Positions 631-18,970 of a DNA stretch of 18,970 nucleotides are shown here, piece after piece. The position numbers and the translations under genes are program-made. The notes under the pieces were generated by a model. The model saw only the letters and a program-made list of their open reading frames with translations. It was not told where the DNA came from and did not search any database. This DNA is from Octopus sinensis (taxonomy: Eukaryota), in contig NW_021824391.1 in the NCBI RefSeq assembly GCF_006345805.1, positions 1-18,970 on the forward strand. Direction: 5' to 3'. Position 1 is the first letter of the stretch. Every line of letters begins with the position of its first letter.

Positions 631-701
631 ATATATGTATGTATGTATATATATGTATATATATATATTATGTATGTATATATATATGTATATATATATA
701 C
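631..701. repeat. (TA)n/(TATG)n microsatellite
   Basis: Direct inspection. Similar tracts lie at 951-1000, 1363-1514, 1710-1858, 3343-3446, 3668-3780, 4548-4773 and 4951-5150. Confidence 0.95.
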
Positions 702-857
702 TACATGCTACCAAGCCCTCACAAGAGTAAAAAAGAAACAAGAGACAGAAAGAAAAAAGGAAAATGTCCCTTGCATTTGAAAACTATGGAAATATTTTTA
801 AAAAAAAAACATTTCATTTAATTTTTTCCACAATTTAATTGTTTTTCATGCTTTACT

Positions 858-897
858 CTAAGTTGAAAAAGTTGCAAAGACTGAAACCGGTACTAAA
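858..897 (+). ncRNA. Minimal type I hammerhead-like motif, U3-A8 core variant
   Basis: TTGAAAA (863-869), stem II AGT(T)/(G)ACT (870-882), GAAA (883-886), palindromic stem III ACCGGT, GUA triplet ending at 892. Stem I is only 2 bp (AG/CT). Confidence 0.45.
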
Positions 898-950
898 ATG
901 TTCTTCATGATAAAATTATTTTAGCATTTTCTACCTTGTCTTATTTTCCT

Positions 951-986
<36 letters not shown>

Positions 987-1001
987 ATATATATATATTA
1001 C

Positions 1002-1231
1002 ATATTGTATAGAGGGCATTATTACACATAAATGCCTCACACTAGGAGGGACAGAGTCATTACTACCAAAATTATACTAATCATACCAAATGCAGTTTTT
1101 CAAAGCAAGACATTAAAAATGGTCTTGCTTTGAAAAACTGCATTTGGTATGATTAGTATAATTTTGGTAGTAATGACTCTGTCCCTCCTAGTGTGAGGCA
1201 TTTATGTGTAATAATGCCCTCTATACAATAT
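1002..1231. repeat. Perfect inverted repeat, 110-bp arms with a 10-nt spacer
   Basis: 1002-1111 is the exact reverse complement of 1122-1231 (checked base by base). The spacer is ATTAAAAATG. Confidence 0.97.
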
Positions 1232-1404
1232 AGATATAATAATTTGTTCAGAAGAAAAAAAATTATTTTCGGATTCTTTTCTTTTATGAGGTTTTCACGC
1301 TAGCTACCTGTAATTTCTTGTTAAGATCCCTTATTAAGAGATTATCCTTAATTGTTAAAACTTATATATATATACATATATACATATATATTATATGTAT
1401 ATAC

Positions 1405-1436
<32 letters not shown>

Positions 1437-1585
1437 GTATGTACATATATAATATATATATGTATATATATTATATGTATATACATACTATATATGTATA
1501 TACATATATATATAAATGTGACCTTGTGTGTACCGTTGGCGATTTTTTTCCTCTGTCTTCCCTTCTCGGATCTTTCCTTCTCCTA

Positions 1586-1620
1586 TGTTCCGACGAAGAG
1601 CTCCGCTCGAAACGTTAAAT
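1586..1620 (+). ncRNA. Minimal type I hammerhead-like motif (U4->C) in a probable Penelope-like pLTR remnant (1517-1710)
   Basis: CCGACGA (1590-1596), one extra A, stem II GAGC-TCC-GCTC, GAAA (1609-1612), palindromic ACGT stem III, GUU triplet, weak stem I (TT/AA). Confidence 0.55.
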
Positions 1621-1705
1621 CCTCCTTCTTTCCTGAGCATCCAGTAATATATATTTGTTCCACGTCCTCGTGTTGTTATGTTTTTTTGTGCTTTCTTGTT
1701 TGGAT

Positions 1706-1755
<50 letters not shown>

Positions 1756-1823
1756 ATATGTATATATATGTATATACATATATATACATATGTAGTATAC
1801 ATAATATATATATATATATATAT

Positions 1824-1858
<35 letters not shown>

Positions 1859-1859
<1 letters not shown>

Positions 1860-2226
1860 TAGCAGTATCGCGCCCGGCGTTGCTCGGGTTTGTAAGGAAA
1901 TAACTATAAAGCATTTTTAGAGAGTTATAGCCAAACAATGGGAAAAAATGATGGTAAATTTTTTTTTAGTTAAAAAGGTCGAGTGCGTCCCCTAGACAGT
2001 CTGTGGTTTGTGTTTCTGATTCTCGACCCCATGTCGAATTTATCGATTTTTTCAGAACTGGGGAACTTTTCAAAATTTTCACTGCGTTAGTTTTGAATTA
2101 TGACATTGGGCTATGTGTGTGTCAAGTTTCATCAGAATCGGTTGAAAGCCGTGGTCAGGGTGAGGGTACGAGAAAACAGACACACAGAAACACACTCAGA
2201 CAAACTGCCGTTTATATATAGAGAGA
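1859..2226 (-). mobile_element. Non-autonomous Helitron, complete copy
   Basis: The minus strand starts TC (A|TCTCTCTATATATAAACGGCAG) and ends with the hairpin CCCGAGCAACGCCGGG (1888-1873) followed by CTAG|T. It is inserted between A and T with no TSD. Homologous to 7744-8068 and 8462-8870. Confidence 0.88.
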
Positions 2227-2235
2227 TATATATAT

Positions 2236-2476
2236 GACGTTTGAACGTTGGGCTTCACAGAGGCAATGACAAAAGACAGCATACCTCTGGAGGTATGCTG
2301 TGACTGAGAAGACCCGGCAAATAAAGTGAGTCTACAGTTGTAACCTACACCAGTGTCACATAACCAGCCCACTCAAAAGTACCTTGGATCGTAGGGTGAC
2401 ATGCCGTGCTTGAGGAGACCTTTTGAGTGAAGTACATCAAGATCAAATGGAAATTGTATTTGCGATCCCAGTGCCA
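2236..2476. mobile_element. Probable dispersed repeat fragment with an internal partial duplication
   Basis: atgctgtgactgagaagaccc recurs as atgccgtgcttgaggagacc. The segment contains a perfect 12-bp hairpin at 2276-2301. Family not assignable. Confidence 0.4.
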
Positions 2477-2657
2477 TGTTATGTTAGCAAACAATCTTTA
2501 CTCCAAAGTACTGCTGCTGAATATCTCTCGTTGTGAGATTTAGAAATAATAATTTTCTTATTTATAAGTCAGTGACTTGTTGTCACTTTGAAAACTATAT
2601 ATTTTGAATGGAAATATGGCAGCGCCACCTCTAGCCAAGCAATTATTCTGTGCTGAT

Positions 2658-2923
2658 CATCATCATTTAGCGTCCGCTTTCCATGCTGGCATGGATTGGA
2701 CGGTGCAACTGGGGTCTGGGAAGCCAGAAGGCTGCACCAGGCCCAGTCTTATCTGGCAGTGTTTCTACAGCTGGGTGCCCTTCCTAACGCCAACCACTAC
2801 ATGAGTGTAGTGAATGCTTTTTACATGCCAGGCGAGGCTGGCGAACAGCCACGATCGGATGATGCTGTTTACGTGCCACCGGCACGGAGGCCAGGCAAGG
2901 CTGGCAATGGCCACGATTGGATG
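2658..2923 (-). mobile_element. Truncated SINE/retroposon 3' part with (GAT)n tail
   Basis: GC-richer segment starting (CAT)n-ttagcgtccgctttccatgctggcatgg, with an internal repeat (gatgc..ttacrtgcca). Candidate 8-bp TSD GTGCTGAT at 2650-2657 and 2924-2931. Confidence 0.7.
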
Positions 2924-3343
2924 GTGCTGATGAAGAGAAATAACCTGGAAATCGTGATACACAGATATTGTTTTGAGCTGAGTGGGGGTGCTAGATTCCC
3001 TTGTTCGAAAATATAAGGACACAGATCATGTCGTATAGCCAGCTGGAGACGATGTCTCCTGGGGCTAAATTACAGTAACATTTGTCCTAAACCAGGAATG
3101 CCATTTTATGTTGGCAAACAATCTTTACTACAATAATGGCTCTCTAAAATTCAGTATGAGATTCCACAGACATAGTCTGGAACATAAAGAATACAGAAGG
3201 GACTAAATTTTCGTTGTCATCCTTAGGGATGGTCATATTTACGAATTAACAATATCTATTTCAATACATGATTGCACATAAAAAAAATCTGCTAAACTAA
3301 TACATAAATACGAATTTTCAAATTACTCTGCTAATTTAAAGTA

Positions 3344-3374
<31 letters not shown>

Positions 3375-3471
3375 CTATATATAGGAGGAAGGAAGCACTC
3401 TGTTGGTTACGACGATGAGGGATATATATATATATATATATATATAACAATTGCAGCGTGCAGCACGGATT

Positions 3472-3522
3472 TTTGTCAGTGAACAGGTCGCGGTCTTAAA
3501 GCGACGAAAATATTTTGACAAA
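3472..3522 (+). ncRNA. Minimal type I hammerhead ribozyme, G3-C8 core variant
   Basis: Stem I TTTGTCA/TGACAAA (7 bp), core GTGAACA (3479-3485), one extra G, stem II GTCGC/GCGAC (5 bp, 9-nt loop), GAAA (3506-3509), palindromic stem III AATATT. Predicted cleavage after U3515. Confidence 0.75.
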
Positions 3523-3665
3523 TCAAACTTAAATGTAGAAGTGAATCAAACGGTTTTTGTGTGTTTCTTAAATGGCTTACAAACACCTTCCACGCTGCAA
3601 TTGTTTTCATTTCAGCACATGATCTCAGATCAAATCACTTGCTATGCAAGTACATCTCGTAAATA

Positions 3666-3702
<37 letters not shown>

Positions 3703-3840
3703 AGTGTGTGGTTTGTGTGTGTGTGTGTGTGTGTATGTTAATGTATATACATATATATATTTATTTGTATATATTTATGCACACTGATAAATATCAGTTA
3801 ATGGTTGACAAAAAATTAAAACTTACATCATCACATTCAT

Positions 3841-3918
3841 TAGCTAACAGTTGTTTCGGTAATAAATGTGCACCGAATGCTGAGTGCTCATGCAACATTA
3901 TAAGCCTCCTCGGAGCCA
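3841..3918 (-). ncRNA. Type I hammerhead-like motif with long stem II (U4->C)
   Basis: Minus strand reads TGGCT CCGAGGA GG-CTTATAATGTTGCA...TGCACATTTATTA-CC GAAA CAACTG TT AGCTA. Stem I has 5 bp including one G-U, stem III ACAACTGT is near-palindromic, and the triplet is GUU. Confidence 0.6.
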
Positions 3919-4777: not shown

Positions 4778-5164
4778 CATAATAACAGAAATAGTCTGAT
4801 GAAATTATTTTTAACAGTAACAAAATTGTAATATCACAACAAATTGTTTTCATAACTTAAAGACATGTAAATAATTTGTATTATTATAATTATAATAAAT
4901 ATATTACCTATATTGCTTGCATTAATGCAAAAGGCATAAATCCTTCAGGTGTATATATATATATATATATATTATATCTATATATATATATATATGTATA
5001 TATATATGTATATAAAATATTCATTTCAATGTATGTATATGTGTGGTGTATATACTCACAGATACACATAGGCACATATAATGCTATGCCACATGTGTTG
5101 AAGAAATAAATAGTATATATATATATATATATATATATTTTGTATATAGAATATCAATAGTTGT

Positions 5165-6639: not shown

Positions 6640-7405
6640 GGGGTAAATTGCACCCCTAATAGTGCAAATGTTAGGAAGCAGTAGCCATGATACGGGTTGG
6701 TTGTAAGTAGCATCCCTATTTTAATGGTTACAGTTGTGATGGTCATGGCCAGCAAGGCTGTTAAAAGTACTCCCACTAATGATGATGCTAACAGTACTCT
6801 TATTTCACTAGTGATGGCCATGACTAGCTTGAATTGTTAGTTGTACCCCAGTTTTACTGGTGGTGGCCATGGTTAGCCTGGATTGTTAGTAGTATCCCAA
6901 TTTTACTGGTGGTAGCCATCGATAGCATGGATTGTTAGTTGTACCCCAGTTTTACTGGTGGTGGCTATGGTTAGCTTGGATTGTTAGTAGTACCCCAATT
7001 TTACTAGCGGTAGACATGGATAGCATGGATTGTTAGTTGTACCCCAGTTTTACTGGTGGTGGCCATGGTTAGCTGAATTGCTATAGTAGTACCCCAATTT
7101 TACTGGCGGTGGTAGCCATGGATAGCATGGATTGTTAGTTGTACCCCAGTTTTACTGGTGGTGGCCATGGTTAGCCTGAATTGTTAGTAGTACCCCAATT
7201 TTACTGGTGGTAGCCATGGATAGCATGGATTGCTAGTTGTACCCCAGTTTTACTGGTGGTGGCCACGGTTAGCATGAGTTGTTAGTTGTGCTCCTATTTA
7301 AAGGTGGTGGCCATGGTTAACGTGAGTTGTTAGTTGTACCCAAATTTCACTGGTGGTGGCCATGGTCAGCATGGATTGTAGTTAGTAGTACCCCTATTTT
7401 AGTAA
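6640..7405. repeat. 49-bp minisatellite with 98-bp A/B higher-order structure
   Basis: ATTGTTAGT recurs at 6833, 6882, 6931 and onward. Variants alternate (ttgtaccccagt..ggccatggttagcc versus tagtaccccaat..agccatggatagca), and units degenerate at both edges. Confidence 0.93.
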
Positions 7406-14684: not shown

Positions 14685-14950
14685 GTTCCTCTACATGGTA
14701 GAAATAGTAACCAACTTAATCCTCCCAATCTAATTGAACAGATCGAAATAGCAGCCAATTTGACCTCGAATCACACCCTACCATCTTTAGAAGGAAAATA
14801 CAACAGAAATAGGCCATATTGAATAATATAGAGACAGTTTTCCTGCAAGAAAGAAAACAAAAGGGATGGTCACATTTGGAATGCATTTGATCACAGGTTT
14901 GCTCACTCATGGAGAGACCTGGGGCTAAACAGAAAAACAACAACAACAAC
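14685..14950 (+). mobile_element. SINE-like 3' fragment ending in (CAA)n, seed of the downstream array
   Basis: Shares motifs with 10-140 and ends gacctggggctaaac..(CAA)n. Confidence 0.55.
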
Positions 14951-16625
14951 TGCTACCATTGTAATCATGACTATTATGGAAAGTAACCAGAAGGGATGGT
15001 CACATTTGGAACGTATTTGATCACATGTATTCGTGGTCATGGTGAGACTTGGGGTTAAACAACAATGATGACCACTAATATGATAATCACCACTATCACA
15101 CAAAGCAACTACAAGGGATGGCCACATTTGGAATGTGTTTGATCACAGGGATTTCTTAGCTATGGCGAGACCTAGGGCTGAATAATTACAACAGCAATAA
15201 CCACTATCATCATAACGATTGCTATAGTAGGAAGTAAGCAGAAGGGATGGTCACATTTGGAATGTGTTTGATCAAAGGACCTGCTCCGTCATGGAGAGAC
15301 CTGGGGTTAAATGATTACAACAGCAATAACCACTATCATCCTAACAATTGCTATAGTAGAAAGTTAGCAGAAGGGATGGTCACATTTGGAATGTGTTTGA
15401 TCAAAGGACCTGCTCGGTCATGGAGAGACCTGGGGTTAAATAATTACAACAGCAATAACCACTACCATCATAACGATTGCCATAGTAGAAAGTTAGCAGA
15501 AGGGATGGTCACATTTGGAATGTGTTTGATCAAACGACCTGCTCGGTCATGGAGAGACCTGGGGTTAAATAATTACAACAGCAATAACCACTACCATCAT
15601 AACGATTGCTATAGTAGAAAGTTAGCAGAAGGGATGGTCACATTTGGAATGTGTTTGATCAAAGGACCTGCTCGGTCATGGAGAGACCTGGGGTTAAATA
15701 ATTACAACAGCAATAACCACTATCATCATAACGATTGCTATAGTAGAAAGTTAGTAGAAGGGATGGTCACATTTGGAATGTGTTTGATCAAAGGACCTGC
15801 TCAGTCATGGAGAGACCTGGGGTTAAATAATTACAACAGCAATAACCACTATCATCATAACGATTGCTACAGTAGAAAGTTAGCAGAAGGGATGGTCACA
15901 TTTGGAATGTTTGATCAAAGGACCTGCTCGGTCATGGAGAGACCTGGGGTTAAATAATTACAACAATAACCACTATCATCATAACAATTGTTATAGTAGA
16001 AAGTAAGCGAGGGGGATGGTCACATTTGGAATGTGTTTGATCAAAGGACCTGCTCGGTCATGGAGAGACCTGGGATTAAATAATTACAACAATAACCACT
16101 ATCATCATAACGATTGTTATAGTAGAAAGTAAGCAGAAGGGATGGTCACATTTGGAATGTGTTTGATCAAAGGACCTGCTTGGACATGGAGAGACCTGGG
16201 GTTAAATAATTACACAGCAATAACCACTACCATCATAACGATTGCTACAGTAGAAAGTAAGCAGAAGGGATGGTCACATTTGGAATGTGTTTGATCAAAG
16301 GACCTGCTCGGACATGGAGAGACCTGGGGTTAAATAATTACAACAGCAATAACCACTACCATCATAACGATTGCTATAGTAGAAAGTAAGCAGAAGGGAT
16401 GGTCACATTTGGAATGTGTTTGATCAAAGGACCTGCTTGGACATGGAGAGACCTGGGGTTAAATAATCACAGCAGCAACAACAATCACTAGCATTGTAAC
16501 CATTGCTATCATACAAAGCAATACTGGAGGGATTGCCACATTAGGAATGCATTTGATCACAGGGCATGCTTGACCACAGTGAGGCCTAGGGCTGAAAAAT
16601 AACAACAACACAACAGCAATCACTA
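14860..16625. repeat. 129-bp minisatellite, ~14 units (10 homogeneous)
   Basis: GAAGGGATGGTCACATTTGGAATG recurs at 15241, 15370, 15499, 15628 and onward. Diverged units lie at ~14861, 14990, 15113 and 16527. Confidence 0.96.
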
Positions 16626-18513: not shown

Positions 18514-18970
18514 AACATTGTTGATAGTGGTGGCCAAAATCTCCCTTTAACTGAGCATAGAAATTTCCATTCTGAGACAACCTGTGAAACTAACCTAAAC
18601 CAGAGAACATAGGTATCGTCAAATTGCAACCACCAGCAGAAGTTTTCTCTTGGTGAATTTCAAAAATATTGTTGATAGTGGTGCCAAAATCTCCCTTTAA
18701 CTTGCATAGAAATTCCAAATTCTGAGACAACCTGTGAAACTAACCTAAACCAGAGAACAGAGTATCGTCAATTGCAACCACCAGCAGAAGTTTTCTCTTG
18801 GTGAATTTCAAAAACATTGTTGATAGTGGGGCCAAAATCTCCCTTTAACTGAGCATAGAAAATTCAAATTCTGAGACAACCTGTGAAACTAACCTAAACC
18901 AGAGAACCGAGGTATCATTACAATTGCAACCACCAGCAGAAGTTTTCTCTTGGTGAATTTCAAAAACATT
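18514..18970. repeat. ~150-bp tandem repeat, at least 3 units, runs off the window
   Basis: ATTGTTGATAGTGG recurs with periods of 151 and 148, and a fourth unit starts at the window edge (period 152). Confidence 0.96.

What the first reader, a model, noticed from the sequence alone, without database searches (positions are those of the whole stretch)
3472..3522. Intact-looking hammerhead with a flipped G3-C8 core pair
Seen: 7-bp stem I, 5-bp GC-rich stem II, correctly spaced GUGAACA and GAAA, palindromic AAUAUU stem III and a UUU cleavage triplet. Both departures from CUGANGA are mutually compensatory. One extra nucleotide follows A9, a position where natural hammerheads tolerate an insertion. 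To my knowledge a natural G3-C8 core is rarely reported. This is the best-formed motif in the window.
Basis: partly seen in the sequence, partly recalled or inferred. Interest (0 to 1): 0.8.

Follow-up and report, generated by a model that had tools for sequence, protein, structure and literature searches.

The report
Flipped-core hammerhead in Penelope retrotransposon
This 51-base motif is one of more than 7,000 copies of a hammerhead-shaped RNA at the end of a Penelope-like jumping gene, in which two paired core letters are swapped (G3-C8 instead of C3-G8); sister families in the same genome use C3-G8 and U3-A8, so the swapped form likely still cuts itself, though cutting is untested.

Summary
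Observation confirmed. Window 3472-3522 is a minimal type I hammerhead fold with a G3-C8 core. It is the only hit of my scan in the window; the strict form never arose in 150 shuffles. It lies in a ~205-nt solo copy (3459-3662) of the pLTR and tail of a Penelope-like element. A full-length parent (L304) has G3-C8 motifs in both pLTRs around an RT + GIY-YIG ORF. An 18-base G3-C8 pattern matches 7,253 times in the genome, against 7 for C3-G8 in that context. Two homologous sister families carry C3-G8 and U3-A8, with compensated stem II pairs, so three pairings covary in one clade. A metagenome relative has C3-G8, so G3-C8 is probably derived. Against function: some older ORF-bearing lineages carry an unpaired G3/G8 core, lab swaps rescue only partly, and no cleavage data exist. 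I found natural U3-A8 in print but not natural G3-C8; the key paper (Lünse 2017) was not available. One phage contig also has a well-formed G3-C8 hammerhead. Verdict: new variant of a known kind, probably a slow, dimer- or protein-assisted ribozyme in the parent element; this solo copy is likely inert.

The parts
3422..3446 (.). (TA)n microsatellite, left flank (likely insertion target)
3446..3460 (-). 15-bp perfect inverted copy of 3591-3605; short 5' inversion of the kind common in this family
   Evidence: similar, longer inversions
3459..3662 (+). Solo 5'-truncated copy of a Penelope-like element: pLTR (to ~3604) plus ~58-nt tail
   Evidence: 3' ends of 119 copies cluster at two points: 70 at the tail end, 25 near 3604
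3472..3478 (+). Stem I, 5' strand
3479..3486 (+). Core G3-U4-G5-A6-A7-C8-A9 plus one extra G
3487..3505 (+). Stem II (5 bp, G10.1-C11.1) with 9-nt loop
   Evidence: pair probability 0.99-1.0 in context
3506..3515 (+). G12-A13-A14, palindromic A15.1..U16.1 (AAUAUU), U17; predicted cut after 3515
   Evidence: cut site inferred from hammerhead numbering
3516..3522 (+). Stem I, 3' strand
3572..3662 (+). First ~30 codons of the element's ORF (MAYKHLPR...); in this copy broken by a stop at 3620-3622
   Evidence: the same peptide opens a 608-aa frame in L277/L304
3666..3699 (.). (TA)n microsatellite, right flank

Best explanation
The motif is the minimal type I hammerhead of a Penelope-like retrotransposon family's pLTR, carrying a natural G3-C8 swap that likely preserves slow self-cleavage. 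Shown: PLE context, ~7,000+ copies, a parent with two such motifs, and 3-8 covariation across sister families. Inferred: in transcripts of full-length or tandem elements, two motifs would pair through their AAUAUU palindromes, or fold with help from the element's protein, and cut after U17, about 56 nt upstream of the ORF start, trimming unit-length RNA. G3-C8 would rebuild the tertiary pair that positions the 2'-OH of residue 8. The window copy is a solo, truncated insertion with no partner in cis and is probably a passive by-product.
For: Parent L304: 5' pLTR with G3-C8 at ~546-748, ORF 657-3871 (one frameshift), 3' pLTR with G3-C8 at 4907-5050. L224 has a 793-aa open frame with RT, CX3CxxC and GIY-YIG-like motifs (read by eye) and an adjacent inverted 5'-truncated copy. 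Sister family B: C3-G8, 1,563 pattern matches; 39 of 40 fetched copies CG, most of them chosen by that pattern. Family C, fetched by DNA similarity only: U3-A8 in 30 of 35. On 29 distinct hand-picked rows, pair 3-8 is CG 14, UA 8, GC 7, none unpaired; stem II has two compensated pairs; 98.9% of cells paired against 10-55% with slid partners. Invariant columns are core and stem II positions. Within the family, variation sits in loop II (6 of 9 positions >10%) rather than the core (1 of 11); contigs of four runs agree. The C3G/G8C double mutant partly restores cleavage in a PLE hammerhead (PMC11167929, passages).
Against: No cleavage assay and no RNA-end data. G3/G8 (unpaired) cores occur in pLTRs of older ORF-bearing lineages (L305 5' copy, L306-L308, L312) and in 9 of 119 copies, so a broken core was apparently carried by source elements. 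In the green-anole PLE, cleavage was not needed for insertion in vitro and no reads ended at the cut site (PMC11167929). PLE minimal hammerheads are slow even with a canonical core (PMC4209133). The double-hammerhead fold of the natural tandem L021 is 0.9-1.8 kcal/mol less stable than two monomer folds and 3-7 kcal/mol above the MFE in all 5 adjacent pairs. Covariation rests on about three independent family-level events, not 29.
Confidence: 0.62

Rival explanations
1. The hammerhead fold is kept as a structural element (protein-binding, RT-loading or translation control next to the ORF start), but cleavage is negligible or irrelevant in this family; G3-C8 preserves the fold, not catalysis.
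For: ORF-linked G3/G8 lineages; G3/G8 is about twice as common as the other transversions (first 100 rows: G8 33, A8 18; C3 20, U3 21, scaled to ~160 vs 60-90); cleavage dispensable for insertion in vitro (PMC11167929); only partial rescue of the swap (PMC11167929, PMC8495972).
Against: G5, A9, G12, A13, A14 and the U-H site are kept across three diverged families (U16.1/H17 read per family). All three large expansions use a Watson-Crick 3-8 pair.
Confidence: 0.3
2. The family's hammerhead died by G-for-C at position 3 and the later C8 is a neutral coincidence that happens to be complementary.
For: One in three random changes at position 8 would give C. The G3/G8 state exists in older lineages.
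Against: The rest of the core and both stems show no decay in any subfamily, and the youngest, ORF-intact subfamilies are G3-C8.
Confidence: 0.06
3. A chance hammerhead look-alike inside a MITE or SINE.
For: Short terminal inverted matches; no Rfam hit.
Against: The repeat is the pLTR and ORF start of an RT/GIY-YIG element; homologous families carry canonical cores at the same place.
Confidence: 0.02

Closest known systems
Minimal type I hammerheads of Penelope-like elements (Cervera and de la Peña 2014, PMC4209133)
   Same: pLTR location, extra nucleotide between 9 and 10.1, G10.1-C11.1, palindromic remnant of stem III, thousands of solo copies, predicted dimer activity.
   Different: Core pair G3-C8. 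The parts of that paper I read report C3-G8 and a U3-A8 family only. Stem I is longer (7 bp vs 4-5).
Natural U3-A8 hammerheads (PMC3088659; PMC4209133)
   Same: Compensatory change of the 3-8 tertiary pair.
   Different: Purine and pyrimidine are swapped: two transversions from either C3-G8 or U3-A8, with no wobble intermediate.
Engineered C3G/G8C double mutant (anole PLE hammerhead, PMC11167929; review PMC8495972)
   Same: Identical core change; partial rescue of cleavage reported.
   Different: Here it is fixed in nature in an element family that expanded to thousands of copies.
C-terminal-endonuclease PLEs with Zn-finger-like linker (Neptune/Nematis type, PMC8557442)
   Same: RT, CX2-5CxxC linker, C-terminal GIY-YIG, pLTR, tail, 5' inversion, (TA)n flanks.
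   Different: Clade name not determined: only ~21-25% identical in short stretches to a Neptune-like ORF of the same genome; 'Nematis' is my recalled guess, from no call. Tail ~58 nt vs the 30-40 quoted.
Non-LTR retrozymes (bioRxiv 10.64898/2026.07.22.740005)
   Same: L021 is a six-unit tandem of this pLTR (166-194 nt spacing).
   Different: The window copy is a monomer, and the family has an autonomous parent.

Membership tests
Hammerhead ribozyme (type I, minimal) | Three-way junction with stems I and II and A15.1-U16.1 | tested here: met
Hammerhead ribozyme (type I, minimal) | U4 G5 A6, A9, G12 A13 A14, U16.1 H17 | tested here: met
Hammerhead ribozyme (type I, minimal) | Literal consensus C3 and G8 | tested here: not met
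   G3 and C8; no Rfam hammerhead hit. Filed as a variant, not a consensus member.
Hammerhead ribozyme (type I, minimal) | Watson-Crick pair between positions 3 and 8 | tested here: met
   CG/UA/GC across three families
Hammerhead ribozyme (type I, minimal) | Site-specific self-cleavage after H17 | not testable with these tools
   Only assembled contigs were served
PLE minimal hammerhead | Extra nucleotide after A9, G10.1-C11.1, palindromic 15.1-16.1 segment | tested here: met
   against PMC4209133
PLE minimal hammerhead | Active as a dimer | tested here: inconclusive
   Dimer pairing possible but slightly less stable than monomers in silico
Penelope-like element (EN+) | RT followed by C-terminal GIY-YIG | tested here: met
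   Motifs read by eye, weak alignment to a PLE ORF in both domains, homologue named RT-domain protein; Pfam gave no hit on this ORF
Penelope-like element (EN+) | pLTR-ORF-pLTR with tail and inverted 5'-truncated copy | tested here: met
   L304, L224, L226
Nematis or Neptune clade | RT phylogeny with named references | not tested
   No named reference sequences available from the tools

The most novel reading that the evidence does not exclude
One retrotransposon clade in one genome has used three Watson-Crick identities of the hammerhead's 3-8 tertiary pair, and the G3-C8 family got there through an unpaired G3/G8 intermediate that still transposed and is preserved in older copies. The genome would hold a fossil series of a ribozyme crossing a fitness valley, and G3-C8 hammerheads would be a wider class missed by CUGANGA-based searches.
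Probability: 0.25. Interest if true: 0.72.

Novelty: new variant of a known kind. Interest (0 to 1): 0.52.

Why it matters
A core swap known from lab mutagenesis appears fixed in nature at very high copy number. It gives comparative support for the 3-8 tertiary pair with a third pair type. It shows that hammerhead searches anchored on CUGANGA or UUGANAA miss whole families. It also offers a matched natural series (C-G, U-A, G-C, G/G in homologous scaffolds) for the open question of whether PLEs need their hammerheads to cleave at all.

Tried and rejected
Rfam: no hammerhead hit. Sequencing runs: no RNA holder listed; 14 holders are only guessed to be RNA, all are contigs, so nothing can be said on expression, strand or RNA ends. 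In one search variants are listed only away from contig ends, so the lack of core variants there is weak. MITE/SINE reading rejected. The Neptune-like element found with PF01541 is not the parent; it has its own U3-A8 motif. A search for a further G3-C8 family with a non-G extra nucleotide gave counts near control (810 vs 757). G3/G8 as ancestral intermediate: not resolved. G3/G8 lineages nest inside the older group beside G3-C8 and G3/A8 copies with weak support (0.25-0.81); old G3/G8 copies are as diverged as old G3-C8 copies (0.087 vs 0.085); their clustering on the DNA tree (10 changes vs 17.4 shuffled) is inflated by local duplicates. PDB search with the ORF: no hit. Pfam: no hit on L224 ORF. 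Papers not held: Lünse 2017, Martick and Scott 2006, and one more DOI tried from recall.

Full report
Observation. The motif is at the stated place with the stated parts: 7-bp stem I, GUGAACA, one extra G, 5-bp stem II, GAAA, palindromic AAUAUU and UUU ending at 3515. It folds as described (z -2.35 for 51 nt, but weaker with flanks and similar on the reverse strand). My descriptor scan finds only this site in the window, with 0 strict and 2 loose hits in 150 shuffled windows. Rfam does not report it.

Context. The window is microsatellite-rich animal DNA from a 2.7-Gb genome. The nearest named relative of the element's protein is from Octopus vulgaris (55% identity), so the host is probably an octopus; that is an inference. 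The motif lies in a ~205-nt repeat (3459-3662) between (TA)n tracts. Many copies have an inverted partial copy at their 5' end or stand in tandem; in the window the inversion is 15 bp. 3' ends cluster at two points about 58 nt apart, matching the PLE 'tail' (PMC8557442, PMC11167929, passages read).

Parent element. Following a longer 5' extension (623 matches) led to L224, with a 793-aa open frame showing RT, CX3CxxC linker and GIY-YIG-like motifs, a ~1-kb 3' UTR, the G3-C8 pLTR and an adjacent inverted truncated copy. L304 is complete: 5' pLTR with G3-C8, ORF beginning MAYKHLPR about 56 nt after the predicted cut, one frameshift, and a 3' pLTR with G3-C8. The window repeat is thus the pLTR plus the first ~30 codons of this ORF. 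Pfam and PDB give no hit on the ORF; PLE membership rests on motifs read by eye, weak alignment to another PLE ORF in both domains, 167 homologues and the architecture.

Counts. In one 18-base context, G3-C8 matches 7,253 times, C3-G8 7 times (one of these, L032, is this family), G3 with another base at 8 486 times, and non-G at 3 with A, C or U at 8 314 times. A3/G8 and U3/G8 were not counted, and inverted partial copies are included. Transitions dominate the variants (hand counts of the first 100 rows: U8 49, A3 59), as expected for decay after insertion. Among 119 copies not fetched with the 3-8 patterns, 102 are G3-C8, 9 G3/G8, 4 deleted, 4 other (70 of these came with the 5' extension, so the sample is not random). 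Contigs from runs of four coded organisms hold the repeat; in the four runs laid on 3462-3530, listed variants fall only in loop II, a weak result because variants near contig ends are not listed.

Covariation. Family B (1,563 matches) aligns with the element over pLTR and tail and has C3-G8. Family C, found through its tail peptide and fetched by DNA similarity, has U3-A8 in 30 of 35 copies. All three have homologous GIY-YIG pieces upstream on the same strand. On 30 rows that I picked as representatives (29 distinct), pair 3-8 is CG 14, UA 8, GC 7, and stem II has two doubly changed pairs. The rows are related, so this is about three events. A tree of 218 C-terminal residues places the G3-C8 family as sister to B plus C (UFBoot 100; fragmentary rows, L193 left out as too short). 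A metagenome relative has a canonical core (L242). With the general consensus this makes C3-G8 the likely ancestor; the outgroup evidence is a single locus.

Mechanism. By analogy with PLE minimal hammerheads (PMC4209133, main text parts 1-2 of 4 and supplement part 1 of 3 read), the six-base palindrome cannot close a stable stem III alone; two motifs would pair through it and cut after U17. G3-C8 should rebuild the tertiary pair: single mutants abolish and the double mutant partly restores cleavage in the anole PLE hammerhead, which also needs the element's protein (PMC11167929, passages); a review gives 10^5-fold loss for G8C with partial rescue by C3G (PMC8495972, one passage). That the 2'-OH of residue 8 is essential is from the same passage. 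Cleavage of this RNA is inferred, not shown. The window copy is solo and its ORF start is broken, so any function belongs to full-length or tandem copies.

Results against. G3/G8 cores sit in pLTRs of older ORF-bearing copies (L305 5' copy, L306-L308 as one lineage, L312) and are about twice as frequent as other transversions, so sources with an unpaired core seem to have existed. Whether they are the intermediate or a later loss is unresolved. The double-hammerhead fold of the natural tandem is slightly less stable than two monomers in 5 of 5 pairs. In the anole element, cleavage was not required for insertion in vitro (PMC11167929).

Novelty. Natural 3-8 covariation is in print as U3-A8 (PMC3088659 passages; PMC4209133). 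Nine full-text searches found G3-C8 only as a lab variant (PMC3884650 and PMC11167929, passages). Lünse et al. 2017, the large survey of PLE hammerhead variants, was not held, and figures, most supplements and bioRxiv supplements were not seen, so a prior report cannot be excluded. Also read: PMC6765202 and PMC11014351 (passages), bioRxiv 10.64898/2026.07.22.740005 (part 1 of 5). G3-C8 is therefore rare but not unique to this genome.

Verdict. A real, high-copy natural G3-C8 variant of the PLE minimal hammerhead, with an autonomous parent and three-way covariation in one clade. New variant of a known kind; activity about 0.6 likely; interest 0.52.

Noticed in passing
window 1002-1231: Perfect 110-bp inverted repeat with a 10-nt spacer.
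   Followed up: no
window 14848-16570, 6802-7401, 18514-18970: Tandem arrays with 129-, 49- and 148-bp units; none passed my hammerhead scan.
   Followed up: partly
L002 (G000:C861): A second small contig repeats the window's element and flanks almost exactly; possible haplotig or segmental duplicate.
   Followed up: no
L021: Six tandem pLTR units with G3-C8 motifs, 166-194 nt apart: a retrozyme-like array and a natural dimer substrate.
   Followed up: partly
L045/L129 and relatives: A Neptune-like PLE family with a U3-A8 hammerhead and an upstream ORF overlapping the RT frame at a T-run, a possible frameshift.
   Followed up: partly
L192-L221, just 5' of the pLTR: A branch-point-like CTAAC, pyrimidine run and AG lie right before the point where many solo copies begin; possible intron end as in D. 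virilis Penelope, or a microhomology.
   Followed up: partly
L242:1672-1722: Metagenome relative of the same ORF clade (42% identity) with a canonical C3-G8 minimal hammerhead in its 3' end.
   Followed up: yes
L341 (170-kb viral contig): Well-formed type I hammerhead with G3-C8 (stems 5/5/10 bp): 1 of 30 G3-C8 pattern hits, against 0 of 44 G3/G8 control hits. It may be the phage of e1-5736661.
   Followed up: partly
L321-L323: ORF-linked pLTRs with a 4-nt deletion through core positions 8-9, another broken-core lineage (three near-identical copies).
   Followed up: no
L033, L037, L075, L093, L130, L140: Other canonical C3-G8 hammerhead-like motifs of unrelated repeat families.
   Followed up: no
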